From a virus: a stretch of 61,485 nucleotides of DNA. The stretch covers positions 1 to 61,485 of the IMG/VR virus record IMGVR_UViG_3300028031_000002, one strand, 5' to 3'. Position numbers and translations under genes: made by a program. This document shows, piece after piece, positions 1 to 61,438 of the stretch (positions are counted from its first letter, which is position 1; every line of letters begins with the position of its first letter). The notes beneath the pieces are model-generated. The model was not told the DNA's origin, ran no database searches, and saw only the letters and a list, made by a program, of their open reading frames with translations.

Positions 1-127
1 GTTATTTCTAACCGCCCTTCTTTGATGCTATAGCCGGTTATAACACGCTCTAAAAGAGACATTAATGTAGTAGTTTGCATTTTAATAATCCTGTATATTA
101 AATTAAGGTTATTATTGACCTTTATTG
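1..127. repeat. terminal overlap, copy 1 (identical to 61359..61485)
   Basis: The first 127 nt are repeated exactly at the window end. Positions 1..80 (minus strand) duplicate the 5' end of CDS 61226..61438. Confidence 0.95.
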
Positions 128-189
128 GTCTTTTAAAACCTATTAAACGTTTTCAAACGTAACTAAACCGCTCATTAGGATTTCTCCTA

Positions 190-880
190 CTTGCAGTAAT
201 CTCATAACGATGGTTCAAAATGGTTCAAAATGAACTTTAAAATTGAACCAAACCCACCTTCAACACATTGAAAACACAATAGAAACAACTAGATTCGATG
301 TAAATCTTTTTGAAACTTTTATAATTTGTGTTGAACCGTTTTGAAACTTATAGAAACAATTGTGAACCACACTGAAACTTACTGAACCATATTGAAACCT
401 GCGGAACCATTGCATACGATTTGTAAAATAAAATTTAATAACTTACTCTATACGTCCGTAGACATTGTAGGGGGATCATAAATAGCTAATTTTTGCAACA
501 ATTATTTCGCTAAAATACAATTAAATTATTAAATATATTAGATACAAATATCAACACATTAGCCCTAAAATGTGCAATATAGTTGCACATAGTGCTTTTA
601 TGGTGCTAAAGTTCTTATATAGTCCATATGAAGCTATGAGTATATGTTATAGATGCACTTGGTTGGGCTTTGTTTCTCTATGGTTCAAATAAATATCAAA
701 AGTTTGGGTACAGCCATCAAAGGTTGATAATGGCAACAATAGCAGTGGAGTATGCTCCTAAATGAGTCTAAATAGTTTCTATTGTGACTCATTTAGTTTC
801 TATTCGGTGCTATGTAGTTTCATTACCGTTTTAATGTTGGTACAAAGTGTGTCTATATTGTTTCTTTTAAAAGCCTTTTT
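190..880. promoter_or_regulatory. origin/centromere-like iteron region A
   Basis: No ORF of 60 aa or more. Eight nGAAMC iterons start at 332, 342, 352, 363, 373, 383, 393 and 403. A 36-nt block at 473..508 and an 18-nt block at 659..676 are identical to region B and are separated by the same 150-nt AT-rich spacer. Three inverted GTTTC iterons lie at 775, 796 and 817, with a 21-nt period. Confidence 0.6.
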
Positions 881-976
881 AGAAGCATTTAAAAGAAAAA
901 ATAAAGGTTAAATTTTACTTTAACAACTTTTTATTAGCAATTAACGCGCTTTAATGCCATTAATTGCCAATATTGT

Positions 977-1294: not shown

Positions 1295-1327
1295 TATTAG
1301 TTCCTTTTAAAGTACTTACTTTGTACT

Positions 1328-1704: not shown

Positions 1705-1733
1705 ATTATACACATATTCGGTACTTCTGTCAA
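1705..1733 (-). promoter_or_regulatory. sigma70-type promoter (TTGACA-17-TATAAT)
   Basis: On the minus strand: TTGACAgaagtaccgaatatgtgTATAAT, 36 nt upstream of the ATG at 1669. Confidence 0.7.
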
Positions 1734-2908: not shown

Positions 2909-2937
2909 TTGACAGCATATTGCTATTTTGGTATAAT
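2909..2937 (+). promoter_or_regulatory. sigma70-type promoter (TTGACA-17-TATAAT, TGn extended -10)
   Basis: TTGACAgcatattgctattttggTATAAT, upstream of the first early gene at 3009. Confidence 0.8.
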
Positions 2938-4066: not shown

Positions 4067-4756
4067 ATGAGTAACGACAAAATGATGGTACGTGATTTCG
4101 CCGGCATTAAGTTTCAGCAACAACGTGACACTGGTATGATTAATATCACGCCACTTTTTGAAAACCAAGTGCAACTGATTGAAATGTTTAACGAAAAAGC
4201 TACTACTGGAATTCCAGTAATAACTAATATTAACACAATCAAGCGGTTAGGCAATTTTATGAAAGAACCACAAACAATTAAGTTACTCAATAGACTAGCA
4301 GAAGTTGACAATTTAAAACCAAAAGAAGTAAAACGCACCTCACGTGCTAAAGGAGCCGTTGGAACATTTGTTCATCCCGTCGTGTTTGTAAGTGCAATGC
4401 GCTACCTTAGTGTTGACTTTGAAATCTGGGCAAACAAGCTTGTCATGGACGAACTAATAAAGTATCGTAATATGACAGCTCAAAGCAACAAAGAGATAGC
4501 TAAAGCGTTTGATAATGCAGGTTTCATAAGTAATCCATCATATCAGTATGGAACACTAAACATTGCAATAGGAGACGCTTGTGATTGTGCATATGAGCAG
4601 CGCAATAATAGCAAAACGTTTCTTTGGGAAAACGCAACAAAAGAGCAGCTACAGCACAGGGAAAAGATACAAAATTCTGTTTCAGATATGATTATGATAG
4701 GATTAATAACCAATTTTGGCGCGGGTATAGCAGCCATAAAAGCACTTAGAAAGTAG
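4067..4756 (+). CDS. KilA-N domain protein
   Basis: The N-terminal segment ...GMINITPLFE...GTFVHPVVFVSAMRYLSVDFEIWANKLV matches the KilA-N signature (GTWVHP...WLSPEF). Confidence 0.7.
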   Translation: MSNDKMMVRDFAGIKFQQQRDTGMINITPLFENQVQLIEMFNEKATTGIPVITNINTIKRLGNFMKEPQTIKLLNRLAEVDNLKPKEVKRTSRAKGAVGTFVHPVVFVSAMRYLSVDFEIWANKLVMDELIKYRNMTAQSNKEIAKAFDNAGFISNPSYQYGTLNIAIGDACDCAYEQRNNSKTFLWENATKEQLQHREKIQNSVSDMIMIGLITNFGAGIAAIKALRK

Positions 4757-12295: not shown

Positions 12296-12661
12296 ATGTC
12301 TAACAAAAACTATATTACACGACTATTTGCTGGAATTGAGTTTCCTCAAGAACGAAAAACAGGTTTGATTAAGATAACACCATTGTTTGAAAATCAAACA
12401 CAACTATTTGAAGTTTTTACTAAAAAAGCTAATACCGACGCAAACAAGCGTCTATGCGATTATATGGAAGACCCAAAAACAATAAAGTTACTTGATGCAA
12501 TAGAAGTATTGAGTGGTTTGAGTGCAACAAATGCAAAAGGTGATTTTGTGCATCCAGTGGTGTTTGTGGACGCTATGGGCTGGATAAGTGTTGAATTTAA
12601 GATATGGGCAACTAAGTTAGTTATGTACGACATATACGATCAAAGTATAGCGACATGTTAA
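12296..12661 (+). CDS. KilA-N domain protein, shorter paralog of 4067..4756
   Basis: ITPLFENQTQLFE...GDFVHPVVFVDAMGWISVEFKIWATKLV aligns with 4067..4756. TAGGAG RBS. Confidence 0.65.
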   Translation: MSNKNYITRLFAGIEFPQERKTGLIKITPLFENQTQLFEVFTKKANTDANKRLCDYMEDPKTIKLLDAIEVLSGLSATNAKGDFVHPVVFVDAMGWISVEFKIWATKLVMYDIYDQSIATC

Positions 12662-15987: not shown

Positions 15988-16644
15988 ATGAAACATTCAA
16001 ACGTTAATATTATTAGTACTGAAATGAGAGAAGCATATAAAACAGTAGGTAGCGACATTGTTACTAGAAATGCCATTTTTCAACCTTCAGGACGGTTTTT
16101 AACCCCAGTAGATTCAATTGAACATTTTGAATTTAAAGATTTCGGATTATTAGAAGCAGATTTACAAGAATTACAAAGTTTAAAAGATGCCAACATTGAC
16201 AATTTACCGAATAATACATCACCATTCGTTATTCAAATTGGTTTTGATGACATGGAACCTATTTATCAAGCAATAGACCAAAGATCCTCACAATTGATTG
16301 AAGCCGCTGAAAAATTAAATATTGAGTTATTATCAATAATCATTTTAAGCCCACGTGATGAGGACTATACACCAGTCAAAACAACAGAAGTTGAAAAAGT
16401 GAAAGAAGCTGCAAAAACTACCGAAGTTACCAAAACTATAGAAGTTGCAGAAATTGAAGAAATAAAAACAGAAGAAACCGTAAAAATGGCACAAAATGGC
16501 GTTAAGATTACAAAGAAAAACGGAGACACAAAATGGGCTAAAAGTTGGGTCAAACGAGCAATTGCAAAAGACCAAATTGAAAATCCTAATGCGGATTATG
16601 AAGTAGTAGAAATTGAAAATAAATTTGAAATTTACCGTAAATAA
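15988..16644 (+). CDS. early protein: ParB-N-like N-terminal region, E/K/T/V low-complexity linker, C-terminal WAKSWVKRAI module
   Basis: 218-aa ORF behind two consensus promoters, with an AGGA RBS. Paralogous in architecture to 16717..17508. Confidence 0.7.
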   Translation: MKHSNVNIISTEMREAYKTVGSDIVTRNAIFQPSGRFLTPVDSIEHFEFKDFGLLEADLQELQSLKDANIDNLPNNTSPFVIQIGFDDMEPIYQAIDQRSSQLIEAAEKLNIELLSIIILSPRDEDYTPVKTTEVEKVKEAAKTTEVTKTIEVAEIEEIKTEETVKMAQNGVKITKKNGDTKWAKSWVKRAIAKDQIENPNADYEVVEIENKFEIYRK

Positions 16645-16647: not shown

Positions 16648-16676
16648 TTGACAAGACGGAACCAGTGCAGTATAAT
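16648..16676 (+). promoter_or_regulatory. sigma70-type promoter (TTGACA-17-TATAAT)
   Basis: TTGACAagacggaaccagtgcagTATAAT. The ORF-track TTG start at 16648 is the -35 hexamer itself. Confidence 0.75.
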
Positions 16677-16716
16677 GTTTTCAAAGAGTAAGAAAAACAA
16701 TTTAAAGGTATTTGAA

Positions 16717-17508
16717 ATGAGTAACAATAACGAAATGGTTTCAGTAGAAACAAAACCATATAAAATTAGTTTGGCATTGTTGGTGACACCCGCCCACATT
16801 GAGGTAAATAACGAACTTGTTGAGTCTCTAAAAAAGACCGGTATAAATGCAACTGTGCCATTATGTACTCCAACAGGAGTTGATACATACCAATTATTAA
16901 CTAATCAAGAGTTATATTTTGCTGCAAAAGCAGCTGGCATAAGATCTTTATGGGTACTTTTGATCGTAGGATCAAATGAAGAAAAGAACGAAATGAAAAA
17001 ACAACGGAATATCCAAAAAGAAGTGCAAAAAGAAGTGCAAAAAGAAGTACAAAAAGAAGTACAAAAAGAAGTTTTTTTAGAAAAGAATATTGAATTGCTT
17101 TATAAAAAAGACAATACGAGTGATTGGGCTAAAAGTTGGGTAAAACGAGCTATTGAGGCACATAAGATTGGTAACAAAGGTTGTACATATACAACCGAAG
17201 AAACTATTAAAGGGAAGTTTAAAATATACATTAAACGGGAACAAGAAAAGGAACAAGAAAAGGTTCTAAATAGAACCGACGTGGCATGTATTAGCGACAA
17301 GTATTATGATTTACATGATCAGCATTACCATGTATATTTAGCAGCAATGAAGTTGGAAGGTAAAGCAATTGCATTAATATTACGAGACCCGTTAGATGAG
17401 TTAAATCGTGAGTACTTTTATGATGCAATGGAATTATTGAGAAGTTACGATGCCATAGAGGCAATTAAATATTTAAACATCAAAAGTAACATAAAATATG
17501 TCATTTGA
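16717..17508 (+). CDS. early protein: ParB-N-like N-terminal region, (QKEV)5 repeat, WAKSWVKRAI module, extra C-terminal domain
   Basis: The ATG at 16717 is used because the track start at 16648 is the -35 hexamer. DTYQLLTNQELYFAAKAAGIRSLWVLLI resembles the ParB/Srx N-domain core, which is a weak call. Confidence 0.7.
   Translation: MSNNNEMVSVETKPYKISLALLVTPAHIEVNNELVESLKKTGINATVPLCTPTGVDTYQLLTNQELYFAAKAAGIRSLWVLLIVGSNEEKNEMKKQRNIQKEVQKEVQKEVQKEVQKEVFLEKNIELLYKKDNTSDWAKSWVKRAIEAHKIGNKGCTYTTEETIKGKFKIYIKREQEKEQEKVLNRTDVACISDKYYDLHDQHYHVYLAAMKLEGKAIALILRDPLDELNREYFYDAMELLRSYDAIEAIKYLNIKSNIKYVI
17014..17073 (+). repeat. 12-bp tandem repeat x5 (caaaaagaagtr), in frame, encoding (QKEV)5
   Basis: Read directly in the sequence. 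Lies inside CDS 16717..17508. Confidence 0.9.
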
Positions 17509-21619: not shown

Positions 21620-22125
21620 AGAAACTAGTATTATTTTCAGGTGTACAACGGAGTGGAAAGACTTACGGTGCAAATACTTTAGCTAAAATCTTTGAGGGGC
21701 AATTAGTAAAAACAGAAATCAAAGGTTTCATAATTAAAACCCATTCAAAGTTACATTACTGCAAGTTAATTGGCGGCGAACTGGGTTATAAAGAGAATTA
21801 TACTGTTCATAAGGCTATTTTAGAGCATTTGATGAGTCTCATCATGAGTTCTTTACGCTCAGATAAGAATTTAATCGTACTAGATAGAGGCTTAATAGAC
21901 GTTCTAATGTATTTTAAGAGTGGTAAACACCATAAAGACGATTTAAAATCTTTAATAATTTCCGTAAAGACTAAACTGTTTTATATACAAACGCTATTTG
22001 ATTTACATACTATCTTTCATCCATTACCGTTATCAAAATACATCACAGAACAATTAAAGCCTTCATACGAGCTATTAAGAGCAAATTATGTGCATTGTGA
22101 GAAGGCTTTAAATGAGCATTATTGA
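21616..22125 (+). CDS. P-loop NTPase, possibly a (deoxy)nucleotide kinase
   Basis: GVQRSGKT Walker A and LIVLDRG, with the size and context of nucleotide-metabolism genes. Substrate unknown. Confidence 0.5.
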   Translation: MKKLVLFSGVQRSGKTYGANTLAKIFEGQLVKTEIKGFIIKTHSKLHYCKLIGGELGYKENYTVHKAILEHLMSLIMSSLRSDKNLIVLDRGLIDVLMYFKSGKHHKDDLKSLIISVKTKLFYIQTLFDLHTIFHPLPLSKYITEQLKPSYELLRANYVHCEKALNEHY

Positions 22126-23611
22126 AACTATAAATAACTTTAACATTACGCCGTCAGGTAAAATGCTCATAAATAGTAAAAAATCACGTATTTTCATTAG
22201 CGGTGCGGTAGGTAGTGGAAAAAGTACCGCGGCAATGATTGCGCTAGTAAAGCGCGGGATGGAACAACCCTTATATGGTGGTGTTAGGCGTTCTAGGCTG
22301 TTACTTTCAAGGTCAACTCGCCCTGAAATCCTAATGACTCTTCTAAAGACTTTTTTAATGCTATTTCCAACGACTAAAATGAAGTATGGGCATCCGATAA
22401 CTGGTACATTATCACTGTTGAACGATAAGAATGAACTTTGTGTATTAGAATTGGTCTTTCTAGCTGTTGGAAACAAAAAGGACGTGGACAAAATAAAGTC
22501 GTTTGAAATTACATGGGGTTATTTAAATGAGGTTACTGGTATACCATATGAAGTTTATGTGGCATACTTAAATCGCATTGGTAGATACCCATCAAAGATG
22601 AATGGAGGTGTAAACTCCTATGGCATAATATGTGACACTAACGCTTTTCCTACCACTCATTGGTTAAAAGAAAAGTTCTATAAAGACTTTCCTGTAATAT
22701 GTCCTGAAACAGGTGATTTTTTAGAGACTGATGATATGTTACTTATTAGGCAACCACCGGCTTTAAAAATGTTTCAAACTAAGGTTAAGGCGAATAAGTA
22801 TGCCAATAGTATTGGTTTCACGGTACATAAAAGTTTAAATAACCAATATTTCGTACAAAATCCACATTGTGACAACTTGACAAACTTACCTGATAAGTAT
22901 TATACTGCTTCAATTGAAGCTAAAACCACCCCAGACATTCGTGTAAACTATATGGGGCATTTTATGAGTGATGATGTGGGTAGTGCGGTATGTTACCCAA
23001 TGTTTAAGGAATATTTGCACATAACAGAAGAAACACAAAACCCTAAAAGTGCGTCTTTGGTAGCCTTGGGATGGGACTTTGGATTAACTCCGGCGTGTGT
23101 AATAACATATACAACAATAGTAAAGGATGAGGACTGTAATGCCATTTATAAAGTGCATGTTGCTGGTGAAGTATTAGGCATAAATGTTGGTTTAGAACAA
23201 TTTGTACCAGAGGTTACGTTAAAGCTAAATGAATTGGGAATCCAAATTAGTGACACACTCTCTTTTATAGATGTGGCAGGACAACAGCGTGCGCAAAGTG
23301 ATGAAAGTACATGTTTATCGGTACTGAACAAGTATGAATTTCAAACGGGTGGCACCGTAACTCAAAATGTAATGAGTAGACTAGAAGCGGTACGTAATTT
23401 GTTCTATACTGAGGGACAATTTACTGTTCACAGTGGTTGCACGTCCTTAATCCAAGGCTTTATCTCAGATTATAAATTCAGTGATTTAATGTTGATCAAA
23501 GGAATATTGAAACCTGACAAAGACAACAGCCATATACAGGACGCATTACAATATGTAGCGTTGGGAATAGACACATTATATGACATTGATGAGTCAATCA
23601 CAGGTTTTTAG
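22112..23611 (+). CDS. terL: terminase large subunit
   Basis: Walker A GAVGSGKS, Walker B-like ITWGYLNE, the nuclease-domain segment GWDFGLTPACVI and the C-terminal HIQDALQYVA. Confidence 0.85.
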   Translation: MSIIETINNFNITPSGKMLINSKKSRIFISGAVGSGKSTAAMIALVKRGMEQPLYGGVRRSRLLLSRSTRPEILMTLLKTFLMLFPTTKMKYGHPITGTLSLLNDKNELCVLELVFLAVGNKKDVDKIKSFEITWGYLNEVTGIPYEVYVAYLNRIGRYPSKMNGGVNSYGIICDTNAFPTTHWLKEKFYKDFPVICPETGDFLETDDMLLIRQPPALKMFQTKVKANKYANSIGFTVHKSLNNQYFVQNPHCDNLTNLPDKYYTASIEAKTTPDIRVNYMGHFMSDDVGSAVCYPMFKEYLHITEETQNPKSASLVALGWDFGLTPACVITYTTIVKDEDCNAIYKVHVAGEVLGINVGLEQFVPEVTLKLNELGIQISDTLSFIDVAGQQRAQSDESTCLSVLNKYEFQTGGTVTQNVMSRLEAVRNLFYTEGQFTVHSGCTSLIQGFISDYKFSDLMLIKGILKPDKDNSHIQDALQYVALGIDTLYDIDESITGF

Positions 23612-24708: not shown

Positions 24709-26985
24709 ATGTCAGTTAAAATAATGGATTTAGATGCAACGGTAGTTAGTTTTTTCAATACTTTAGATACCACCAGCTACGAGGCGGCAATATTAACCAC
24801 CACAGGTAATCTAAGTAAACATCAAGATTATTCTTATTTAGCAGCCCGCTTGTTGGCAGAACAATTAGTAATTAAGCTTCGAGATAGTGGTAATTACAAG
24901 GATAAAAATACATATTTTAAACACTATATTGAGTCAGCCATCAAAAGCGGTAAATTAAACCCTAAATTAGCTACTAGTTTTGATCTAAAACGCCTTAACG
25001 ACGCATTTAATTTTACACATGTGGATAACTTTCATTATATTGGTTTGAAAACATTGGTAGATAGATACTTAATTAGAGACAATAACAACATAATTATAGA
25101 GCTACCACAGGCGTTTTTTATGCGAATTGCCATGGGTGTATCCTATAATGATGGCACCAAAGAAGAATGCACAAATAATGCAATTAAATATTATCGTGTT
25201 ATGTCTTCATTTGAATACATGCCATCAACCCCAACACTGTTTAACAGTGGAACTGCGCACCCGCAATTATCAAGTTGTTTTGTTTCTTCTGTAGAAGACT
25301 CTATTGATGGCATATTCGGTGAATTAAAAGATGTTGCACATATCAGCAAACATAGTGGTGGAATTGGGCTTGATTGGACAGATATTAGATCATCAGATAG
25401 TAAAGTATTAGGGATTGATGGTAAATCACAAGGTATTGTACCATTTATGAAAATCTTTAATGACACTTTATTGGCAGTTAATCAGGGCGGCAAGCGTAGA
25501 GGTGCAGGTGTTGCCTATATTGAGACTTGGCATAAAGACATTTATCAGTTTTTAGAGTTAAGGAAGAACACCGGTGACGACCGATTAAGATGCCATGACA
25601 TGAATACGGCGCATTGGATACCAGATTTATTTATGGAAAGAGTGAAGAACCACCAAAAGTGGACTTTATTTGATCCTAATGAAGTTAAGCTTGCGGGTTA
25701 TGAACTACATATGGCTGTAGGAGACGATTTTAAGGCTCTTTATGAAAAAGCTGAGAGTGATAAACGCTTGCGAAGTGCTACACAAGTTCTAGCAGTAGAT
25801 TTATGGCAAAAAATGTTAATCTCATTATTTGAAACCGGGCATCCGTGGATTACATTTAAAGACACCTTTAATCTTAGAAACCCAAGTAAATCACAGGGGG
25901 TAATTAAGTCTAGTAATCTATGTACCGAAATTGGATTAAATACATCAAATCATGAGCTTGCTGTATGCAATTTAGGTTCTATAAATGTTACTAAAATGGT
26001 CATTAACCAAGAAATTAACTCTATAAAGTTACAATATGTAGTATCTGTAGCTGTCCGTATGTTAAATGCTGTAATTGACTATAACGCGCTTCCAGTAGGA
26101 CGTGGTAAGCTCTCAAATAAAAAATATCGCCCTATTGGACTAGGTTTAATGGGTTTTCACACGATGTTGCAACAAAATAAGCTCAGTTATGAAGACCCTT
26201 CAGCACTAAAGTTGTCATCAAAACTGTCTGAATTAATACAATACTATGCCACCTCAGAGTCCATTGAGCTAGCCAAAGAGAATGGACCATATCCAGCCTT
26301 TAAAGGCTCATCATGGGATGACGGCAAATTAACTCATGAAACTATTGAGGAAGTTAGAGGAAACAAAGATGGCTCATTTAAATATTATACAAATGAAATA
26401 CCGTTAAAGTTCTATGAAGGTATCAAAGCGGACATAAAAGAATTTGGTATATATAATTCTACTTTAACCGCAATAGCACCTACTGCCACAATTGCAAATA
26501 TTTGTGGCGTTTCACAGTCTATTGAACCACATTACTCTAACTTATATACTAAAGTCAATTTAAGCGGGGAATTTGTACATATTAACGCTGAGTTAGTCTC
26601 AGAATTGACCGAGTTAGGTAAATGGGATGCGGAAAGTTTTGATATTTTATTAGAAAATCATGGTGATGCACAATATTTAAGTACTAAAGATGTGCCACAA
26701 TATGTAATTAATAGATTCAAGAATGCGTTTCAAATTGACCAAATCAAGTTATTGAAATGTACAGCAGCGCGACAACGATTCACTGATCAATCCATATCAA
26801 TGAATCTATATATGAATGGCTCAGATGGTAAACAGTTATCACACTTATACACCAGTGCATACAATATGATGCTAAAAAGCACCTATTATTTACGTACTAA
26901 AGCCGCAACAACAATAAATACTCATAGTTCTATAAGGGCTATAAAATGTTCTATAGATGACAGCAGTTGTGAAGCTTGTCAATAA
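24709..26985 (+). CDS. nrdA: ribonucleotide reductase class I, large subunit
   Basis: 758 aa, with the SNLCTEI active-site loop, GLGLMGF and a C-terminal Cys pair (CEAC). Confidence 0.95.
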   Translation: MSVKIMDLDATVVSFFNTLDTTSYEAAILTTTGNLSKHQDYSYLAARLLAEQLVIKLRDSGNYKDKNTYFKHYIESAIKSGKLNPKLATSFDLKRLNDAFNFTHVDNFHYIGLKTLVDRYLIRDNNNIIIELPQAFFMRIAMGVSYNDGTKEECTNNAIKYYRVMSSFEYMPSTPTLFNSGTAHPQLSSCFVSSVEDSIDGIFGELKDVAHISKHSGGIGLDWTDIRSSDSKVLGIDGKSQGIVPFMKIFNDTLLAVNQGGKRRGAGVAYIETWHKDIYQFLELRKNTGDDRLRCHDMNTAHWIPDLFMERVKNHQKWTLFDPNEVKLAGYELHMAVGDDFKALYEKAESDKRLRSATQVLAVDLWQKMLISLFETGHPWITFKDTFNLRNPSKSQGVIKSSNLCTEIGLNTSNHELAVCNLGSINVTKMVINQEINSIKLQYVVSVAVRMLNAVIDYNALPVGRGKLSNKKYRPIGLGLMGFHTMLQQNKLSYEDPSALKLSSKLSELIQYYATSESIELAKENGPYPAFKGSSWDDGKLTHETIEEVRGNKDGSFKYYTNEIPLKFYEGIKADIKEFGIYNSTLTAIAPTATIANICGVSQSIEPHYSNLYTKVNLSGEFVHINAELVSELTELGKWDAESFDILLENHGDAQYLSTKDVPQYVINRFKNAFQIDQIKLLKCTAARQRFTDQSISMNLYMNGSDGKQLSHLYTSAYNMMLKSTYYLRTKAATTINTHSSIRAIKCSIDDSSCEACQ

Positions 26986-26992
26986 CTTTTAA

Positions 26993-27022
26993 TAGCACAT
27001 TTAAAATACCTTAAATGTGCTA
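26993..27022 (+). other. perfect 12-bp stem hairpin between nrdA and nrdB
   Basis: tagcacatttaa-aatacc-ttaaatgtgcta. The same tagcacatt/aatgtgcta arms occur at 13610..13639. Confidence 0.7.
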
Positions 27023-27042
27023 AACTCATGAGATAACTACAA

Positions 27043-28101
27043 ATGATTAATGTAACAGATAAACTAATAAATGTCGGTACCCGTGTTATAGGTGATAATA
27101 AAATAATTTTAGGAAATAGTGAGCCTAGGCAACCGTTGCCCGTAATGTTCCCTAATATCAGAGAAAGATTTTTAAATAGTAGGTTTAATTTTTGGACACC
27201 GAACGAAATTGCAATGGCTGAAGACAAACTACAGTACTCTAATGGTACTATTTCTGAGCAAGAAAAAGCCATTATAGCCGCTAATATCAGCTATTTGACA
27301 ATAGGTGACACCTTAGTGCCAGACAATATTGTAAATCATATATTACCAAGAATAAAAACGCCTGAACTGCGCCAATACCTAAGATGGCAAATTGCAGAAG
27401 AAGCCAACCATATTGAATCTTATCTGTACATTTTAGAATCTTTGGGTATTGATACTGAAGGACAAGGTAAAATATTTAACATTTATCAAACTAATGAAGC
27501 TATTGCGGAAAAAGTGAACTGGAACTTAATGAACTCTCAACAACTAAATGACGATGTTCCGAGTGAAGACCTATTATATCAAGAATCGTTAATAATTAAT
27601 TTAGTTGCGTACTTAATGTTTGAACTAGTGTTTTTTCCTGCTGGTTTTTCACAGATATTTGCTTTTGCACGCAACGGAAAAATGCGTAATATGGCGCAAC
27701 AATATACCTTCATTTGGCGCGATGAGGCACTTCATGCCGATAACGCGGCGTTTATGTTACGACAGTTAATGTATTTCGAGAATGACAGGTCTATTTTAAA
27801 TAGAAGCCTTCTAAAGCGCATTTATAACGTTTTATATGAAGGCTTTGAACTTGAAATGGCACATATTCGCAGTGTATTTAGCGGTTTTGATATTGTGGGA
27901 TACTCTATATCCGATTATGAAAAATACGTTAAATTTCTAATAAACCAATTGTGTAAACAGCTTGACATTGATATAGTTTTCACGGATGTTCTACATAACC
28001 CAATACCATGGGTATTAGCGTACCAACTAGGCACCGAAGCTAACTTTTTTGAAAGTAGAGTTAAGGAATATAAAGTAGGCGTATCATTGGATTTTAATTA
28101 A
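27043..28101 (+). CDS. nrdB: ribonucleotide reductase class I, small subunit
   Basis: Di-iron ligand motifs EEANHIESY and RDEALH. 352 aa, directly downstream of nrdA. Confidence 0.95.
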   Translation: MINVTDKLINVGTRVIGDNKIILGNSEPRQPLPVMFPNIRERFLNSRFNFWTPNEIAMAEDKLQYSNGTISEQEKAIIAANISYLTIGDTLVPDNIVNHILPRIKTPELRQYLRWQIAEEANHIESYLYILESLGIDTEGQGKIFNIYQTNEAIAEKVNWNLMNSQQLNDDVPSEDLLYQESLIINLVAYLMFELVFFPAGFSQIFAFARNGKMRNMAQQYTFIWRDEALHADNAAFMLRQLMYFENDRSILNRSLLKRIYNVLYEGFELEMAHIRSVFSGFDIVGYSISDYEKYVKFLINQLCKQLDIDIVFTDVLHNPIPWVLAYQLGTEANFFESRVKEYKVGVSLDFN

Positions 28102-28139
28102 CTGTTGAAATTCAGTTTATGTAATGTTTCTTTTTTGTT

Positions 28140-28770
28140 TCAAAAACGTCTTTTAAATTGAACCAAACCATTGCACAACACTATGAAAACATTGTAGAAG
28201 TGCTTAACTTGGTAATGGAAACGCGCTGAAACAGTGTCTAAAATTGCTGAAACATGTTGAAACAAGTTAGAACCATATTGAACCGTGCAGAACCAATTTG
28301 AAACTTGTAGAACCATTGTTACCAGATTGTAAAATAAATTATAATAACTTACGTGGTATTCCCCTACATACTGTATATGGATCATAAATAGCTAATTTTT
28401 GCAACAATTATTTCATTAAAATTGAATTTAATTTTTAAATAAATTATCGTTTAATATAAGCAGCTTACCCATTTTTACCCTAAAAAAGTTGCTAAACGTG
28501 TTATTATAGTGCTATACTGCTAATATAAGCTAAGTAAACTTATGCGTACACGTTATTAACGCATTTGGTTGGGCTTTGTTTCATATATGTTCAATTAAAT
28601 CTGAAACGGGTCCGCAGAAGGCTATATGGTTGCATGAATACACAAAGAGTGTCCAAAAGTACCCATTCACGTCTCAAATGGTTTTTAGTTCCGCTCAAGA
28701 CCGTCACAATATGTTTTTATATGTTTCCATACAGTTTCATTAGAGTACTCTCTACACATAAGTATAACAT
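28140..28770. promoter_or_regulatory. origin/centromere-like iteron region B (paralog of region A)
   Basis: Nine nGAAMC iterons start at 28217, 28227, 28247, 28257, 28269, 28279, 28289, 28299 and 28309. Identical blocks lie at 28379..28414 and 28565..28582 with a 150-nt AT-rich spacer. GTTTC repeats lie at 28723 and 28734. The region fills the convergent gap between nrdB and the minus block. Confidence 0.6.
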
Positions 28771-29628: not shown

Positions 29629-29636
29629 CCTTTTTT

Positions 29637-32600
29637 TTAAAAAATTTCGTCGCCAATTAGTTGTATGTCTTCAATGTCTTCAAAAGCTTCTAGTTTATTC
29701 TCAAATGTGTTTTCTGCAACATCTATATCTGCCAAGTCTTCTGGGGCTATATTAGCCATTAATTTATTATAGCAATAAGTCACTAATTTTGCTCTTTCTG
29801 AGTTCGCAGTTATTACGTCGTCAATAATAGCGTATCCAATACGTTTTGCGTACATTTTAAGTAATTTTACAGCTATCTCATCGGAGTGTTCACCTAATAA
29901 TACCTCTCTTGAGTACGGCATTTGTAGGCTCAATGCGGATAATACTGAACTAATTAGTACTTCATGAGAGTATTTATTAATTAACTTAGAGAATCTTTCA
30001 GTTGCCTCAGCTAATGAGCTTGTATTATAACAATTTAGAAACATATGAACGCCTTCAAAATCAGTGCGCAACAGACTACCCAAATAGGTACTCTCAAATT
30101 CAAGTTTATTTGCCACATTTGGTAAATCAACTTCTAATGCAATTAAATTTCCTATTGAAAGAAATTTATTTTCTAATAGTTGCAGACCATCCACAGTTTC
30201 AATTTGTGCTTCATTTAACACTATCGCGATGTTTTCTTTGTCTGTAGCAATAACTTTACCCGATTTAATCGCTTTTAACTGTATTTCGTCCATATCATGG
30301 ATTATTGCGGCACATTCTGTAATATATTTTTGATTATATTTGGTCAATTCTTCAGATAAATAGTGATTTAATTCCTTTATAAGTCGGCGATATTCACCAC
30401 TTTTAGAGAAACTGTCTGGCATTTTCTGCACTTTATAACCTGCATTTTTTAGCATCAAATGTATTTCTTGTTCACTATCCGCAATATTAAAGGCGGTTAC
30501 TGCCAATAATAATTGTCTTTCACCAACACTTAAACGCTCGAAATTCACTAATTTATGTGAGCTACTCTCGGTAGCTTTAACTTTATTTTGAAAACTTGCC
30601 GCACTTGAGCCATCAAATAAATGTATTGTGTTTGTACGATTTCTTGCTCGGTTTAATAATTGTAACATTTCAGCGCGTGTAATGTTACCGTAAAAGTTGC
30701 CATAAACTGCGCGTTGTTTTCCTATAAAAGATATTCCGGTACTAACGGATGGTGTTACTATAATATCTTGGTAATTGGCATCTAATGCGTTTATATCTTT
30801 TAATTCATCGTCTTTTGTCATTGAGTTAATTACTTTCGCAGTTCTTCCTAGGCTCAATGATAGGGCGTACATTTTCTTTGATTCTTGTAACGAATCAGTC
30901 ACAAATAAAGTTGCTTCTGCGCTCATAGTAGAAATTGCACTTGCATATATTAAATGCAGCTCTCCTGCCGTAGCAGTTAAGTTTACATCTATAACTGCAT
31001 TATTATTACTTTTACGGTCATAACCGGCTAAAAAGATTGACGGTGTTTCGTTAAACATTTCTTTGAAAAATACGTATACCGCATCATTATTGTCTGCACT
31101 TAATGCAATTAGTTTTTTACCCTTGTTTAAAGACTCTTGCATACCATTAATGATTTCTAACTTATGTTTTCTAATTCTTTGGCGTTCTAATAATAACTTA
31201 ATTATTAAATGAGATTCATCCATTATAATATGGGTGTTAGCCAAGTATTTGTACGAGCTGTCTATTGTAGTTATGACTATTTTAGAATCATTTGCGTTTT
31301 TATCTTGATAAGTGCTACATTTGATACCGTGAGATGTTAATGTCGCATGTGTTTGCTTGACTAAGGCTATATTAGGTAAAACTATTGTAACAGCACCCTC
31401 AAGGGTTTTTAAATGCTTTATAATGATGTTTGCTGTCTTACCTGATCCCATTGGGGCGGTTATTAGCTCAATATTATTCCTATTGGACTTGAACCATTCA
31501 GTAGTGTCTAACTTTGGGTATCCTTCAGACATATCAATTGTAGATAGCATTACTGGACATGATTCTGAAATTTTAACGAACTTTTGGGGTATTATTGATA
31601 GTAGCTCAAGCATTGAAGCAATTACATTTTCAACAGTCTTAAATGCAGGTCTTTTTGCTAAGGTTATTATAGCTTTGTTGCAATGTAATGAAGTTAGTTC
31701 ATTACTAGATTCTGTAATAAGTTGTTCTAGTGCTTTAACGTCTTTTAGCGGTAAGCTGTCAATCATTTGCACAGCATTATGCGCCAATGACAATGCAATT
31801 GAGTTGGAATAAAACGTCATTGGTTTATCTATGGATAAGTTAAACGCTTCTTTGGAAGCAACATTATACCAATCATATAAATCAAAGTCATCAGTATCCT
31901 TAAATGCACCACTGGCTACAGCCATAGTTATATACTGATTTAGGATAGCCACGTTATGCCCTTTATTAGCCAATAAATTTGCAGCTTGTAACGTGCCTTC
32001 TCGTCCTGCTTTGTCGTTATCTGGAACTAAAATAAATTGTTTTAATCCTATTATAGCCGCCTTTTTAACTTGTTTAGCGTGTTTAATTAGATTTGATATA
32101 CCATTAGTAGCCGCAACGGTAATTGGACCGTTAGTATGTGCTAATCTGCCGGCACAAATTGCATTAACTAAGCCTTCAGCTAATACAATAACGGTGCTAC
32201 CGGGTGCTTGATGCCCACAAAAGCCAACAACACCGTTTTCTTGCATATGCTTAATTTTACCTGAAATGCGTAAGGAAGACACTATTGTAGTGTCTTCAGC
32301 TAAGCCATTGGCTATAATTGTATTTAAATTGGTAATCGGTGTATAAAGGTCTTTATCATGTGCTTTTGCACCAAAGTCTTGTAAAAGACTTAACTCTGCT
32401 GCTCTTAAAGAGCTTTTTTTATTACTTATATAGTCAGTGTTTTTAACAGCTTCTTTTGAAGCAGCTAACTTTGAAAACAAACTTGTGGCTATTTTTCTAC
32501 TTTGATTTGATACGCAAATTTTAGCTGTAGGCACTCTATCAGAGTCTTCGATAGTTATTGCATTGTTTCTGGTGGATGCTGCAATAGAAAAACTTTTGCC

Positions 32601-32894
32601 AATAAAGCGTTCTTGTACTGAAGGTGAAAATGCGTTAAAGGTTGCGGATATATTCGCACCTTTTCCATTTATATAAACAGAACATCTAAGGTTGCCGCGG
32701 TCAGCCAAAACAAATTTATTTTCACCGTCGTCCAGTTTTTCTATTAAAGATTCTGCACCGTCTTCTAAAGATAAACCTAAATAATCTTTGTTTGGGTAGT
32801 CGTTAATGTCTAAATTAGTAGAAATTTCGTCACATACGGCTTTAATTTTTACAATTAATTTCTCTGCTTCTGTTGCAGTTATTTTGTAGCTCAT
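29637..32894 (-). CDS. putative primase-helicase (unknown N-domain, Toprim, SF2 DExH helicase)
   Basis: Toprim VLAEG...ILVPDNDKAGREG. Helicase motifs APMGSGKT, IIMDESH, LSADN, TPSVSTGISF and QLLNRARNR. Confidence 0.8.
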   Translation of the reverse strand: MSYKITATEAEKLIVKIKAVCDEISTNLDINDYPNKDYLGLSLEDGAESLIEKLDDGENKFVLADRGNLRCSVYINGKGANISATFNAFSPSVQERFIGKSFSIAASTRNNAITIEDSDRVPTAKICVSNQSRKIATSLFSKLAASKEAVKNTDYISNKKSSLRAAELSLLQDFGAKAHDKDLYTPITNLNTIIANGLAEDTTIVSSLRISGKIKHMQENGVVGFCGHQAPGSTVIVLAEGLVNAICAGRLAHTNGPITVAATNGISNLIKHAKQVKKAAIIGLKQFILVPDNDKAGREGTLQAANLLANKGHNVAILNQYITMAVASGAFKDTDDFDLYDWYNVASKEAFNLSIDKPMTFYSNSIALSLAHNAVQMIDSLPLKDVKALEQLITESSNELTSLHCNKAIITLAKRPAFKTVENVIASMLELLSIIPQKFVKISESCPVMLSTIDMSEGYPKLDTTEWFKSNRNNIELITAPMGSGKTANIIIKHLKTLEGAVTIVLPNIALVKQTHATLTSHGIKCSTYQDKNANDSKIVITTIDSSYKYLANTHIIMDESHLIIKLLLERQRIRKHKLEIINGMQESLNKGKKLIALSADNNDAVYVFFKEMFNETPSIFLAGYDRKSNNNAVIDVNLTATAGELHLIYASAISTMSAEATLFVTDSLQESKKMYALSLSLGRTAKVINSMTKDDELKDINALDANYQDIIVTPSVSTGISFIGKQRAVYGNFYGNITRAEMLQLLNRARNRTNTIHLFDGSSAASFQNKVKATESSSHKLVNFERLSVGERQLLLAVTAFNIADSEQEIHLMLKNAGYKVQKMPDSFSKSGEYRRLIKELNHYLSEELTKYNQKYITECAAIIHDMDEIQLKAIKSGKVIATDKENIAIVLNEAQIETVDGLQLLENKFLSIGNLIALEVDLPNVANKLEFESTYLGSLLRTDFEGVHMFLNCYNTSSLAEATERFSKLINKYSHEVLISSVLSALSLQMPYSREVLLGEHSDEIAVKLLKMYAKRIGYAIIDDVITANSERAKLVTYCYNKLMANIAPEDLADIDVAENTFENKLEAFEDIEDIQLIGDEIF

Positions 32895-37678: not shown

Positions 37679-38884
37679 ATGGCTACTTTCCATGGAAATT
37701 ACGCTAGTGTCATCCCACATCTATTGAAGGGATTTAGCAAAGCGTATCAACAACGAGTGAACTTACTGGCTACAGTAAACAATGATGCTGGCAGTATGCG
37801 AGCCGCAAAAGGCGAATTAATTAAAGTCAATTATGCTGAACCATTAAGTGTCACACCGGTTACACCATCACTTTCAACACCACCGGGTGAAACACCTTTA
37901 TTTTACGATAAGGCAATTCAATTACAGCATTGGGATCACGTAAGATTTCAGCTAGATGATCGTGTGGTTGCTGGTAAAGGCGGTATAGTTGACCAAATTC
38001 CGTCCGCAATTAGTCAAGCTGCTGATGCTTTGAGTGATACACTAAATGATCGTATTGTTGCAGAACTTAAAAATACCGGTAATGTTTTACTTACTACGAA
38101 CGCACCATTAAGCACATATCAAGATATTGTTGATGCTAACAAAGCATTGAGCTTTAAAGCACCGTCTACAGGACGGCTGGCGGTCTTTGGTCGTGAAACG
38201 GAAGCAATTATATTGACACAACCGCAATTTTTAACCCGTGATTTCCAAGCAGAATCAAAGACCATTAAAAAGGGTGTTATAGGACAACGTTTGGGATATG
38301 ACTTTATGCCCATAAATGTGTCTCGTGGCGTGGATCATTCTGTTAGGGTAGACGGTGTAGTAACTTCTGCGGTACCTGCTATTAAAGAAGGTAGAGATTA
38401 TGCCATCACAGTATCAGCAGCTCCTACAGGCGGCAAAGAGTTTCATGTTGGTGATATTTTATTGGTAGAAAAGTTTAATGGTGCTGCTACAGCGGGTAAT
38501 GATAATACATTAACTCTCGTGGTCTCTCAAGGTGCTACATTATCAGGCGGTACCGCACAAATAGAGGTTCGTGGCGGCGGTGCGTTTCAATATTTAGGCG
38601 TTAGTGGTACTTTTGAAGCTCGCGTATTAAAGATTCAAGACGAGGCTTTTATTTATAACCAGACCGCATTAACGTTTGTATCACGACCAGCAGCTCCATT
38701 AGGCTTTACTAGTACTAGCGGCACTGTATTTGATTCTGGTGCAAACATTTCGTACACCATGGAAGTCGAAAGAGCGCATAAAATAACTCTCTATGATATT
38801 TCCATACTGTACGGTCTTAGAACTATGATACCCGAATTTAGTGTACGCTCGGTGAAAATAGATTTGGCAGATAAGTTCATTTAA
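37679..38884 (+). CDS. major capsid protein (P22-coat-like)
   Basis: 401 aa. The N-terminal pattern (LLKGFSKAYQQRVNLLATVNND...AAKGELIKVNYAEP) resembles the P22 coat family. AAAGGA RBS and a strong terminator downstream. Confidence 0.75.
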   Translation: MATFHGNYASVIPHLLKGFSKAYQQRVNLLATVNNDAGSMRAAKGELIKVNYAEPLSVTPVTPSLSTPPGETPLFYDKAIQLQHWDHVRFQLDDRVVAGKGGIVDQIPSAISQAADALSDTLNDRIVAELKNTGNVLLTTNAPLSTYQDIVDANKALSFKAPSTGRLAVFGRETEAIILTQPQFLTRDFQAESKTIKKGVIGQRLGYDFMPINVSRGVDHSVRVDGVVTSAVPAIKEGRDYAITVSAAPTGGKEFHVGDILLVEKFNGAATAGNDNTLTLVVSQGATLSGGTAQIEVRGGGAFQYLGVSGTFEARVLKIQDEAFIYNQTALTFVSRPAAPLGFTSTSGTVFDSGANISYTMEVERAHKITLYDISILYGLRTMIPEFSVRSVKIDLADKFI

Positions 38885-53576: not shown

Positions 53577-53613
53577 AATCTTTCTCTTTTGTTGTTCTAT
53601 TAACTTGGTACCC

Positions 53614-53641
53614 ATTATACACTATTGGCTTGGGTTGTCAA
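53614..53641 (-). promoter_or_regulatory. sigma70-type promoter (TTGACA-16-TATAAT)
   Basis: On the minus strand: TTGACAacccaagccaatagtgTATAAT. The ORF-track ATG at 53615 lies inside the -10 hexamer. Confidence 0.7.
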
Positions 53642-61229: not shown

Positions 61230-61438
61230 ATAAAAGACACCGTTAAGATTTTTGAAGTCATGGTATTGGACTTTATAGCATTTATTAAATCCTCTGAAAA
61301 TCTCTCGCAGGTTAGAAACTTATCTGAGCTAAAAGATGCCATTTCTGCACTTTTAAAGGTTATTTCTAACCGCCCTTCTTTGATGCTATAGCCGGTTATA
61401 ACACGCTCTAAAAGAGACATTAATGTAGTAGTTTGCAT
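61226..61438 (-). CDS. hypothetical protein
   Basis: 70-aa ORF with an AGGA RBS and an ATGA overlap to the next gene. Its 5' end lies in the terminal overlap. Confidence 0.55.
   Translation of the reverse strand: MQTTTLMSLLERVITGYSIKEGRLEITFKSAEMASFSSDKFLTCERFSEDLINAIKSNTMTSKILTVSFI

What the first reader, a model, noticed from the sequence alone, without database searches (positions are those of the whole stretch)
190..880. ORF-free region with eight nGAAMC iterons phased at 10-11 bp, an AT-rich core and inverted iterons
Positions 81..976 contain no ORF of 60 aa or more.

TGAACC, TGAAAC, AGAAAC or GGAACC start at 332, 342, 352, 363, 373, 383, 393 and 403. That is one per helical turn, so all sit on one face of the helix. 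More dispersed copies lie at 207-316.

The iterons are followed in order by:
- a 36-nt block containing GATC (473..508)
- a 150-nt very AT-rich stretch
- an 18-nt block (659..676)
- three TAGTTTCwATT repeats in the opposite orientation at 21-nt spacing (775, 796, 817), one of them inside a 10-bp inverted repeat (759..768 / 786..795)

Inference: iterons, then an AT-rich unwinding region, then inverted iterons is the classical layout of a replication origin. Two iteron clusters at helical phasing also resemble ParR-type centromeres.
Basis: partly seen in the sequence, partly recalled or inferred. Interest (0 to 1): 0.7.

Follow-up and report, generated by a model that had tools for sequence, protein, structure and literature searches.

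The report
Duplicated iteron and unwinding module
An uncultivated tailed phage carries two diverged copies of a 500-600 bp non-coding module, each with a row of short repeats one DNA turn apart and the most easily melted DNA in the genome; this is most likely a pair of replication-origin-type protein assembly sites, a known kind of element not yet shown to work here.

Summary
The eight nGAAMC repeats lie at the stated positions. The motif pair occurs 11 times against 0.1 expected.

The whole module (A, about 205-830) has a second, same-orientation copy 27.9 kb away (B, about 28120-28760) in a 61,358-bp circular genome.

- The copies are 65% identical overall.
- They share perfect blocks of 36, 18, 15, 12 and 11 nt.
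- Repeat cores are conserved (36/40 positions) and spacers are not (23/43).
- The only net indels between blocks are 9 and 11 bp.
- Both copies have exactly 268 bp between the last direct repeat and the first inverted one.
- The two least stable 40-bp duplex windows of the whole genome are 511-550 (A) and 28407-28446 (B).

I found no ORF, structured RNA, DnaA box, ParB domain or partition NTPase, and no related sequence in any public collection.

Copy B lies about 1 kb from a 1085-aa Toprim-helicase whose helicase part resembles CyRepA plasmid replication proteins.

Best reading (about 0.5): origin-type initiator-binding arrays, each next to an unwinding element. The two-copy arrangement is analogous to SPP1 oriL/oriR or P4 ori/crr.

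The ParR-centromere idea is not supported. Function remains untested.

The parts
205..254 (.). Module A, left end. Two inverted repeat copies (GGTTC at 212 and 222; TGGTTCAAAATGGTTCAA) are followed 23 bp later by a direct copy inside the perfectly conserved block AAATTGAACCAAACC (240-254).
   Evidence: the same layout occurs in copy B at 28126, 28137 and 28160
282..409 (+). Module A repeat field. Dispersed direct copies lie at 282 and 312. The main array has eight nGAAMC units starting at 332, 342, 352, 363, 373, 383, 393 and 403, one per helical turn.
   Evidence: core positions 36/40 identical to copy B against 23/43 for spacers
421..446 (.). Conserved block TTGTAAAATAAA..TAATAACTTAC (12 + 11 nt perfect).
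473..508 (.). 36-nt block identical in both copies. It contains GATC (474), the palindrome TAGCTA and an 18-bp near-palindrome TAATTTTTGCAACAATTA (487-504). A -35-like TTGCAA lies at 493-498.
   Evidence: a run of 36 matches was never reached in 20,000 column shuffles
501..560 (.). Candidate DNA-unwinding element of copy A, 85% AT. Window 511-550 is the least stable 40-bp duplex window of the whole genome. It contains 9-nt ATTAAATAT repeats.
659..689 (-). 18-nt block TTGGTTGGGCTTTGTTTC identical in both copies. It carries an inverted repeat copy at 672, exactly 268 bp after the last direct copy, and a second inverted copy at 682.
758..825 (-). Right end of module A. It holds the 18-bp-arm inverted repeat 758-775/779-796 and three inverted TAGTTTC units 21 nt apart. 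Only AGTTTCATTA (816-825) is conserved in copy B.
28120..28169 (.). Module B, left end. Inverted copies lie at 28126 and 28137, then the block AAATTGAACCAAACC (28155-28169).
28217..28315 (+). Module B main array. Nine nGAAMC units start at 28217, 28227, 28248, 28258, 28269, 28279, 28289, 28299 and 28309.
28327..28414 (.). Module B conserved blocks: TTGTAAAATAAA / TAATAACTTAC (28327-28352) and the 36-nt block (28379-28414).
28407..28466 (.). Candidate DNA-unwinding element of copy B, 86.7% AT. Window 28407-28446 is the second least stable 40-bp region of the genome.
28565..28742 (-). Module B right part. The 18-nt block (28565-28582) carries an inverted copy at 28578, 268 bp after the last direct copy. 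Further inverted copies lie at 28723 and 28734 (AGTTTCATTA 28733-28742).
29637..32894 (-). Candidate initiator and replisome component: a 1085-aa Toprim + DEAD/ResIII helicase. Residues 473-793 match the CyRepA1 plasmid replication protein model.
   Evidence: the link to the module is inferred from proximity only

Best explanation
Each module is an origin-type nucleoprotein assembly site.

1. A phage-encoded sequence-specific protein binds head-to-tail to the 8-9 nGAAMC hexamers. These are one helical turn apart and therefore lie on one face of the DNA. The protein is not identified. The most attractive candidate is the CyRepA-like Toprim-helicase encoded 1 kb from copy B, by analogy with P4 alpha.
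2. The flanking inverted copies, about 120 bp to the left and exactly 268 bp to the right, let the complex wrap or loop the DNA.
3. The strain is released in the adjacent 50-60 bp segment of 85% AT, the weakest duplex in the genome. This segment starts inside a 36-bp invariant block whose 18-bp near-palindrome probably binds a second, dimeric factor or positions the helicase.
4. The helicase-primase and the family A DNA polymerase then start synthesis.

The two copies are either two origins, or one origin (A) plus an auxiliary site (B) that binds the same protein. Copy B could work as an enhancer like P4 crr, or as a bound roadblock like SPP1 oriR.

Shown here: the anatomy, the duplication, the selective conservation, the duplex-stability ranks and the gene context. 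Inferred: protein binding, melting, initiation, and the division of labour between the copies.
For: - The repeat array is far beyond chance and is confined to the two modules (11 observed against 0.1 expected).
- A second, diverged copy exists in the same orientation. It is 64.8% identical over 500 columns but has perfect runs of 36, 18, 15, 12 and 11 nt. A run of 36 occurred in 0 of 20,000 shuffles.
- Within the array, hexamer cores are conserved 36/40 and spacers 23/43. This is the signature of base-specific protein contacts repeated once per turn.
- The architecture is kept to the base pair. Both copies have a left inverted pair, a direct copy 23 bp later, the main array, and 268 bp to the first right-hand inverted copy. 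The offset between copies changes only by 9 and 11 bp, about one turn.
- The least stable 40-bp duplex windows of the genome are number 1 (511-550, copy A) and number 2 (28407-28446, copy B).
- There is no conserved reading frame across the blocks, no Rfam match even at E<=1, no excess RNA folding (z -0.97 and -0.49) and only a weak consensus fold. Constraint therefore acts on the DNA.
- Context: copy A heads the minus-strand operon that holds the family A polymerase. Copy B ends the operon with the Toprim-helicase, whose helicase region matches CyRepA1 (E 2e-23). CyRepA proteins (Toprim-like plus DEXDc domains) support autonomous plasmid replication (PMC10079941).
- Precedent for two similar repeat-plus-DUE sites bound by one initiator in one phage: SPP1 oriL/oriR (PMC6316719).
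Against: - There is no functional data of any kind.
- No initiator was identified. The neighbouring 256-aa protein has no family, PDB-sequence or fold match. The C-terminal region of the Toprim-helicase could not be modelled (pLDDT 38).
- The repeat unit (10-11 bp with a 5-6 bp core) is shorter than classical 17-22 bp origin iterons. It resembles centromere or response-regulator arrays as much as origin iterons.
- No DnaA boxes are present.
- Short contigs of four distant relatives carry the Toprim-helicase plus 256-aa gene pair but show no comparable array next to it.
- Third-codon GC skew places its minimum near 0-9 kb, which is compatible with copy A. The same contrast is equally explained by a gene-class effect, and copy B is not at an extremum.
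- No relatives exist to test covariation.
Confidence: 0.5

Rival explanations
1. The module is a transcriptional control region. The phased hexamers would be operator or activator sites for a phage regulator. The 36-bp block would be a promoter with an overlapping palindromic operator. It would drive a plus-strand RNA that is antisense to the minus-strand genes on its right (977-1669 in A; 28776-32894 in B), or that acts as a primer.
For: - Copy A has TTGCAA-17-TACAAT at 493-521 (9/12 consensus match).
- The -35-like hexamer sits in the centre of an 18-bp near-palindrome typical of dimeric regulators.
- The phage clearly uses sigma-70-type promoters elsewhere (perfect consensus at 1733..1705 and 2909..2937).
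- In both copies the right-hand neighbour is the 3' end of a minus-strand gene.
- Winged-helix regulators bind direct repeats at 10-11 bp phasing (general knowledge).
Against: - In copy B the -10 position reads TTGAAT, which lacks the essential A at position 2, and no promoter-like site is called there.
- Promoter-like hits in the region are no more frequent than in shuffles.
- There is no conserved ORF, RNA structure or terminator downstream.
- An array of 8-9 sites more than 120 bp upstream of the promoter, plus inverted copies 150-300 bp downstream, is more than promoter control needs.
- This reading is not exclusive of an origin: T7 and T4 origins use promoters.
Confidence: 0.2
2. The module is a centromere-like or DNA-organising site. 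A small adaptor protein of the ParR, TubR or omega type would coat the phased repeats to segregate, position or compact phage DNA.
For: - One repeat per helical turn in arrays of 8-10 is the hallmark of type II and type III centromeres such as R1 parC, pSK41 parC and tubC (general knowledge).
- Two dispersed copies are conceivable. Phage N15 has four dispersed centromere sites (my recollection, not checked).
- There is a weak MvaT/H-NS-like hit in 52737..53615 (E 0.0012, below cut-off).
Against: - No actin-like, ParA/Walker or tubulin-like NTPase and no ParB domain was found among about 70 proteins scanned.
- The modules are not upstream of any operon that could encode a partition pair.
- The gene set (family A polymerase, ribonucleotide reductase, thymidylate synthase, dUTPase; no integrase or repressor found) looks virulent rather than plasmid-like.
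- A centromere does not explain the conserved extreme-AT segment and the invariant 36-bp block.
Confidence: 0.1
3. The module is a packaging recognition (pac) site, bound by the small terminase subunit, which often recognises phased short repeats flanking a cleavage region.
For: The phased repeats flank a central conserved region. This resembles SPP1 pacL/pacR and the hexamer clusters of P1 pac (general knowledge).
Against: - The large terminase gene is at 22112..23611, 5 to 22 kb from the modules.
- Two equivalent same-orientation pac sites half a genome apart would cut headfuls out of register.
- The assembly is circular with no read-end information.
Confidence: 0.05
4. The module is a decaying segmental duplication with no function of its own, and the perfect blocks are left by patchy gene conversion.
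For: There are only two copies and no external homologues.
Against: - Conservation tracks the hexamer cores and not the spacers.
- Indels are restricted to about one helical turn, and a 268-bp spacing is kept exactly through a stretch that is 50-70% identical.
- Both copies hold the genome's weakest duplex.
- Gene conversion would leave long tracts, not a series of 10-36 nt blocks in fixed order.
Confidence: 0.05

Closest known systems
Bacillus phage SPP1 oriL / oriR bound by gp38 (PMC6316719)
   Same: - One phage genome carries two separated sites of similar organisation: direct repeats next to an AT-rich unwinding element.
- One site lies in a non-coding stretch.
- In SPP1 one site fires and the other is proposed to act as a protein-bound fork barrier that triggers the theta-to-sigma switch. 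This gives a ready model for unequal roles of copies A and B.
   Different: - There is no sequence similarity.
- SPP1 uses a dedicated origin-binding protein, a helicase loader and a DnaB-type helicase with the host polymerase. This phage has a Toprim-helicase fusion and its own family A polymerase, and no gp38-like protein was detected.
- The repeats here are shorter and strictly phased.
- Binding and firing are untested.
Satellite phage P4 ori / crr with the alpha primase-helicase
   Same: - Short iterons (an 8-bp core in P4) occur in two distant clusters.
- Both clusters are recognised by one multifunctional primase-helicase-origin-binding protein encoded nearby.
- The second cluster is a cis-acting auxiliary site.
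   Different: - P4 alpha has an SF3 helicase and a defined C-terminal winged-helix iteron-binding domain. The protein here has a DEAD/ResIII-type helicase region related to CyRepA, and no DNA-binding domain could be shown.
- P4 ori and crr differ in structure, whereas A and B here are full paralogues that each include an unwinding element.
Iteron plasmid origins (pSC101, R6K gamma/alpha/beta, P1 incC/incA) and lambda ori
   Same: - Direct repeats lie next to an AT-rich DUE.
- Extra inverted or distant repeat copies are used for autoregulation, looping or handcuffing.
   Different: - Classical iterons are 17-22 bp and are bound by winged-helix Rep or lambda O proteins, with DnaA, IHF or Fis sites.
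- Here the unit is 10-11 bp with a 5-6 bp core, there is no DnaA box, and no Rep/O homologue was found.
Type II centromeres: R1 parC and pSK41 parC bound by ParR
   Same: Arrays of about 8-10 repeats at one per helical turn, which let a small protein coat one face of the DNA.
   Different: - parC lies directly upstream of parM-parR and contains their promoter.
- Here there is no ParM or ParR, no such operon, and a conserved unwinding element that centromeres lack.
CyRepA plasmid replication proteins of cyanobacteria (NF042913; PMC10079941)
   Same: The neighbouring 1085-aa protein shares the Toprim-like N-terminal plus DEXDc helicase architecture. It matches the CyRepA1 model over residues 473-793 (E 2e-23).
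   Different: - The score of 83 bits is far below the family cut-off of 200, so the protein is a distant relative and not a member.
- The CyRepA origin sequences are not known to resemble this module.

Membership tests
Iteron-type replication origin (lambda ori, SPP1 oriL/oriR, P4 ori/crr, iteron plasmids) | Three or more copies of a short direct repeat clustered in non-coding DNA or in the rep gene | tested here: met
   There are 8 (copy A) and 9 (copy B) phased nGAAMC units; 11 motif pairs against 0.1 expected.
Iteron-type replication origin (lambda ori, SPP1 oriL/oriR, P4 ori/crr, iteron plasmids) | An easily melted AT-rich unwinding element next to the repeats | tested here: met
   The 40-bp windows at 511-550 and 28407-28446 are the two least stable of the genome. 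Segment 501-560 is 85% AT.
Iteron-type replication origin (lambda ori, SPP1 oriL/oriR, P4 ori/crr, iteron plasmids) | Selection on the repeat cores rather than on the spacers, with helical register preserved | tested here: met
   Cores are 36/40 identical between copies and spacers 23/43. Net indels are only 9 and 11 bp, and the 268-bp spacing is identical.
Iteron-type replication origin (lambda ori, SPP1 oriL/oriR, P4 ori/crr, iteron plasmids) | A cognate initiator protein that binds the repeats | not testable with these tools
   The only candidate comes from proximity and family resemblance: the Toprim-helicase 29637..32894. The 256-aa neighbour is uninformative.
Iteron-type replication origin (lambda ori, SPP1 oriL/oriR, P4 ori/crr, iteron plasmids) | DNA synthesis starts here (marker frequency, 2D gels, autonomous replication) | not testable with these tools
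   No reads or experiments are available. The proxy, third-codon GC skew, is inconclusive. Its minimum falls at 0-9 kb and maximum near 34 kb, but the contrast is confounded with gene class.
Iteron-type replication origin (lambda ori, SPP1 oriL/oriR, P4 ori/crr, iteron plasmids) | Host-factor sites such as DnaA boxes (present in many origins, not in all) | tested here: not met
   No TTATCCACA match with one mismatch or fewer occurs in either module.
Type II ParMRC centromere (parC) | Array of repeats phased at one helical turn | tested here: met
Type II ParMRC centromere (parC) | Site lies immediately upstream of, and regulates, an operon for an actin-like ATPase and a small adaptor | tested here: not met
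   The flanking genes are a 70-aa and a 457-aa membrane-like protein (copy A), and the 3' ends of nrdB and a 256-aa gene (copy B). No actin-like or ParM hit was found in any scan.
ParABS partition (ParB-parS) | Palindromic parS site and a ParB protein with a ParB/Srx N-terminal domain | tested here: not met
   The repeats are direct, not palindromic. Proteins 15988..16644 and 16648..17508 have no ParB hit in Pfam or NCBIfam at E<=0.01.
Transcription-primed origin (T7 primary origin, T4 oriF/oriG, ColE1) | A functional promoter firing into the AT-rich region | tested here: inconclusive
   Copy A has TTGCAA-17-TACAAT (9/12). Copy B has TTGAAT at the -10 position and no called site.
Structured non-coding RNA gene | Conserved, thermodynamically favoured secondary structure or a match to a known family | tested here: not met
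   Rfam gives no match at gathering score or at E<=1. Folding z-scores are -0.97 and -0.49. The consensus fold is -8.5 kcal/mol over 176 nt.
Terminase pac site | A single site in or beside the terminase genes where packaging cleavage starts | tested here: not met
   The large terminase is at 22112..23611 and there are two equivalent copies elsewhere. Cleavage itself is not testable.

The most novel reading that the evidence does not exclude
A new class of phage origin. A CyRepA-like Toprim-helicase, or a small unknown partner, would polymerise on 'mini-iterons' (5-6 bp cores, one per helical turn). Two full paralogous copies placed almost half a genome apart (27.9 kb of 61.4 kb) would be paired or used sequentially by the same protein. 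For example, A would fire and B would hold the fork or handcuff A to time the switch from theta to concatemer replication. This would combine centromere-like DNA coating with origin melting.
Probability: 0.15. Interest if true: 0.65.

Novelty: new member of a known kind. Interest (0 to 1): 0.42.

Why it matters
Origins of replication are unknown for almost all uncultivated phages. They are usually guessed from skew alone.

Here a within-genome duplication acts as a natural conservation experiment. It shows which bases matter (hexamer cores, a 36-bp block, an 18-bp block), which distances matter (268 bp; indels of one helical turn), and where the DNA would melt. That gives a fully specified design for footprinting, mutagenesis or plasmid-replication assays.

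If confirmed, three things would follow. It would add a second natural example of the SPP1-type two-site arrangement. It would link CyRepA-like Toprim-helicases, known as plasmid Rep proteins, to phage origin recognition. And it would yield a compact, portable origin cassette.

If the regulatory or centromere reading is right instead, the module is still a well-defined multi-site protein-DNA assembly. It would not be new in kind.

Tried and rejected
**Looking for relatives**
- DNA and protein searches of GenBank phages and PLSDB plasmids gave no match.
- Scans of IMG/VR, JGI metagenomes and GTDB genomes for the 21-, 20- and 18-nt conserved blocks gave only chance matches of 18-24 nt with no flanking similarity.
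- A scan of IMG/VR for four phased GAAMC units returned unrelated TTTTTGAAAC tandem arrays and other repeats.

**Protein homologue searches**
- The Toprim-helicase and the 457-aa protein found only themselves. A four-sequence profile of the Toprim-helicase added one remote hit.
- An exhaustive HMMER search with the 256-aa protein found four remote homologues. Their short contigs keep the Toprim-helicase plus 256-aa gene pair but show no repeat array.
- Profile-based locus searches in IMG/VR gave nothing useful.

**Identifying a binder**
- An AlphaFold model of the 256-aa protein (pLDDT 59) had no PDB fold match.
The single-sequence model was unusable (pLDDT 38).
- PDB sequence searches were empty.

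**RNA gene hypothesis: rejected**
- Rfam, RNAalifold and folding z-scores were all negative.

**Coding hypothesis: rejected**
- The small ORFs differ in frame across the conserved 18-nt block in the two copies.

**DnaA boxes and GATC clustering**
- There are no DnaA boxes. Each module has a single GATC, and the genome-wide GATC count is as expected from a Markov model.

**Replication skew: inconclusive**
- An additive model gives breakpoints near 5 kb and 34.5 kb (2dLL 27.7).
- The contrast is algebraically identical to a gene-block effect on the coding strand. A saturated model prefers a 25-46 kb regional effect.
Full report
**What the window is**

The last 127 bases repeat the first 127. The window is therefore a circular assembly of 61,358 bp, and the gene that starts at 80 on the minus strand is the same as 61226..61438.

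It is a tailed phage.
- It has a large terminase at 22112..23611, a P22-like coat protein at 37679..38884 and a neck/tail-completion protein.
- It has its own replication and nucleotide-metabolism genes. These are a family A DNA polymerase (53931..56204) and a 1085-aa Toprim + DEAD/ResIII helicase (29637..32894). It also has ribonucleotide reductase (24709..28101), thymidylate synthase and dUTPase.
- No integrase, repressor or partition protein turned up in about 70 proteins scanned.
- It has no relative in GenBank phages, PLSDB or IMG/VR. In a 5.8-billion-protein collection its helicase and a 457-aa protein match only themselves.
- The contig comes from ENA assembly ERZ27262698, and part of it is also in SRR8439430.

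**Checking the observation**

- TGAAMC-N5-GAAMC occurs 11 times against 0.10 expected, and only in two places: 212-687 and 28248-28314.
- No ORF of 60 aa or more lies in 81-976.
- The 21-nt-spaced inverted units and the 758-796 inverted repeat are present.
- The '150-nt very AT-rich stretch' is overstated. It is 72.7% AT against 66.2% for the genome, and 9% of windows are as rich. Its first 50-60 nt are exceptional.

**The key new fact: the module is duplicated**

Positions about 205-830 (copy A) align with about 28120-28760 (copy B), in the same orientation.
- Over 500 columns identity is 64.8%, yet there are perfect runs of 36, 18, 15, 12 and 11 nt in the same order. A run of 36 was never reached in 20,000 column shuffles.
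- Copy B has nine phased units (28217-28309).
- In the main array the five core positions are 36/40 identical between copies and the spacers 23/43.
- The architecture is kept precisely:
  - two inverted copies at the left end;
  - a direct copy 23 bp later, inside an invariant 15-mer;
  - the main array;
  - exactly 268 bp to an inverted copy inside the invariant 18-mer;
  - further inverted copies to the right.
- The A-B offset is 27,915, then 27,906, then 27,917. The only net indels between conserved blocks are 9 and 11 bp, about one helical turn.
- This pattern points to selection on a protein-DNA architecture. It does not look like a decaying duplication.

**Nature of the constraint**

- The 36-nt block holds a GATC, a TAGCTA palindrome and an 18-bp near-palindrome TAATTTTTGCAACAATTA. 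This looks like a site for a dimeric protein.
- From inside this block a 50-60 bp segment of 85-87% AT begins. With nearest-neighbour energies, the least stable 40-bp window of the genome is 511-550 (A) and the second least stable is 28407-28446 (B).
- No reading frame is shared across the blocks.
- Rfam finds nothing, even at E<=1.
- The plus-strand RNAs fold no better than shuffles (z -0.97 and -0.49), and the two minimum-energy folds differ.
- The consensus fold is weak.
- The constraint therefore acts on double-stranded DNA.

**Context**

- Copy A lies between the 3' end of two small minus-strand genes and the start of the minus-strand operon that includes the polymerase. Those two genes are driven by a perfect consensus promoter at 1733..1705.
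- Copy B lies between the 3' end of the nrdB-like gene (plus strand) and the 3' end of the 256-aa gene that follows the Toprim-helicase (minus strand).
- A 'leader of 61438<-' therefore cannot explain both copies.
- The other convergent junction of the genome has a classical bidirectional terminator hairpin (50333-50372). Copy B has none.

**Candidate binders**

- The Toprim-helicase matches the NCBIfam CyRepA1 'plasmid replication protein' model over residues 473-793 (E 2e-23, 83 bits, cut-off 200).
- CyRepA proteins have the same Toprim-like plus DEXDc layout and suffice for autonomous plasmid replication (PMC10079941).
- This makes the Toprim-helicase a plausible initiator-helicase-primase in the manner of P4 alpha (my own knowledge). 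No DNA-binding domain could be demonstrated.
It has no recognisable fold, and its relatives have no repeat array beside them.
- The 'ParB-N-like' proteins have no ParB hit.
- KilA-N (4067..4756, 12296..12661) and Bro-N/T5orf172 (50603..51190) proteins exist.

**Replication skew**

- At third codon positions, the plus-strand GC skew is positive from about 8 to 34 kb. It is negative from 34 kb through the junction to about 4 kb, largely irrespective of gene orientation.
- A two-breakpoint model puts the minimum at about 5 kb (support 0-9.5 kb, which includes copy A) and the maximum at about 34.5 kb.
- That fits a bidirectional origin near copy A and not at copy B.
- However, the contrast is mathematically the same as a difference in coding-strand skew between gene blocks. 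A saturated model prefers a regional effect over 25-46 kb.
- I count this test as inconclusive.

**Interpretation**

The best-supported reading (about 0.5) is an origin-type assembly site.
1. A protein coats the phased hexamers on one DNA face.
2. Flanking inverted copies allow wrapping or looping.
3. The neighbouring weakest duplex melts.
4. The phage helicase-primase and polymerase take over.

Two copies have a precedent in SPP1. [quoted passage not shown] P4 ori/crr is a second precedent.

Rival readings:
- a regulated promoter or operator region (0.2; copy A has a 9/12 promoter match, copy B lacks a usable -10);
- a centromere-like coating site (0.1; phasing only, no NTPase or adaptor found);
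- a pac site (0.05);
- a functionless duplication (0.05).

The promoter and origin readings are not mutually exclusive.

**Verdict**

In kind it is a new member of the iteron-plus-unwinding-element origins. Its unusual features are a 10-bp unit, two full paralogues and a CyRepA-like neighbour. It is interesting mainly as a ready-made experimental design, and nothing about its function has been tested.

Noticed in passing
window 1-127 and 61359-61485: The two ends of the window are identical, so the record is a circular assembly of 61,358 bp. The gene starting at 80(-) is the same as 61226..61438(-).
   Followed up: yes
window 1793-2092 (inverted), 2179-2449, 2618-2888, 50062-50290: A second repeat family of about 200-270 nt occurs in four copies. 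The 180-nt core is more than 90% identical. Arms 1907-2001 and 2703-2797 are 100% complementary. Three copies sit in the ORF-poor divergent early region, beside sigma-70-type promoters (perfect consensus at 1733..1705(-) and 2909..2937(+), plus a weaker TTGACA site near 2474). The fourth follows the 1471-aa gene. There is no Rfam match at E<=1 for 1-3100. It could be a regulatory element, a non-coding RNA or a small mobile element.
   Followed up: partly
window 29637-32894 (-): The 1085-aa Toprim + DEAD/ResIII helicase resembles CyRepA1 plasmid replication proteins (NF042913, E 2e-23, below cut-off). In the three distant relatives whose contigs include the full gene (L142-L144) a homologue of about 1100 aa is always followed by a homologue of the 256-aa protein. 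In L143 and L144 this pair lies directly upstream of the dUTPase-terminase block on the same strand, whereas here it is inverted and moved behind the ribonucleotide reductase genes.
   Followed up: partly
window 21211-21256: Three to four copies of (G)CACTTTAG are spaced 11 and 21 nt apart. They straddle the end of the dUTPase gene and lie just before the ATG at 21260. This may be another phased protein-binding array.
   Followed up: no
window 15591-15753: A 78-nt unit is repeated 2.1 times at 97% identity, with an internal 34-nt sub-repeat containing TTGGCACAATAT. It lies in a stretch called as small ORFs upstream of 15988..16644.
   Followed up: no
window 50333-50372: A perfect 13-bp-stem hairpin (GCTGTATCAGTAG...CTACTGATACAGC) is flanked by an A-run and a T-rich run. 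It looks like a textbook bidirectional intrinsic terminator at the convergent junction of the tail and replication blocks.
   Followed up: no
whole window, third codon positions: There is strong regional heterogeneity of GC skew at third codon positions. Coding-strand values are +0.04 (3-28 kb), -0.13 (28.7-34 kb), -0.05 (34-50 kb) and +0.15 (50-61 kb). This is significant against gene shuffles (0 of 300). It could reflect replication or gene class, and the two could not be separated.
   Followed up: yes
window 22112-23611: The large terminase gene sits in the long plus-strand block between a small AAA-like gene and thymidylate synthase. It is about 11 kb upstream of the block with the coat and tail genes (34.3-50 kb).
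   Followed up: no
L007 5345-5406, L063 7839-7900, L079 312-364, L095 1067-1135, L024 11221-11277: Unrelated IMG/VR contigs, one of them (L024) a giant-virus MAG, carry intergenic tandem arrays of TTTTTGAAAC or TTTTAGAAAC (5-7 units, period 10-11). They were found by the phased-GAAMC scan and have no other similarity to this module.
   Followed up: partly
window 52737-53615 (-): A 292-aa protein in the replication operon has a weak, sub-threshold match to the MvaT/H-NS-like nucleoid-structuring family (E 0.0012). It could be a binder of AT-rich DNA.
   Followed up: no
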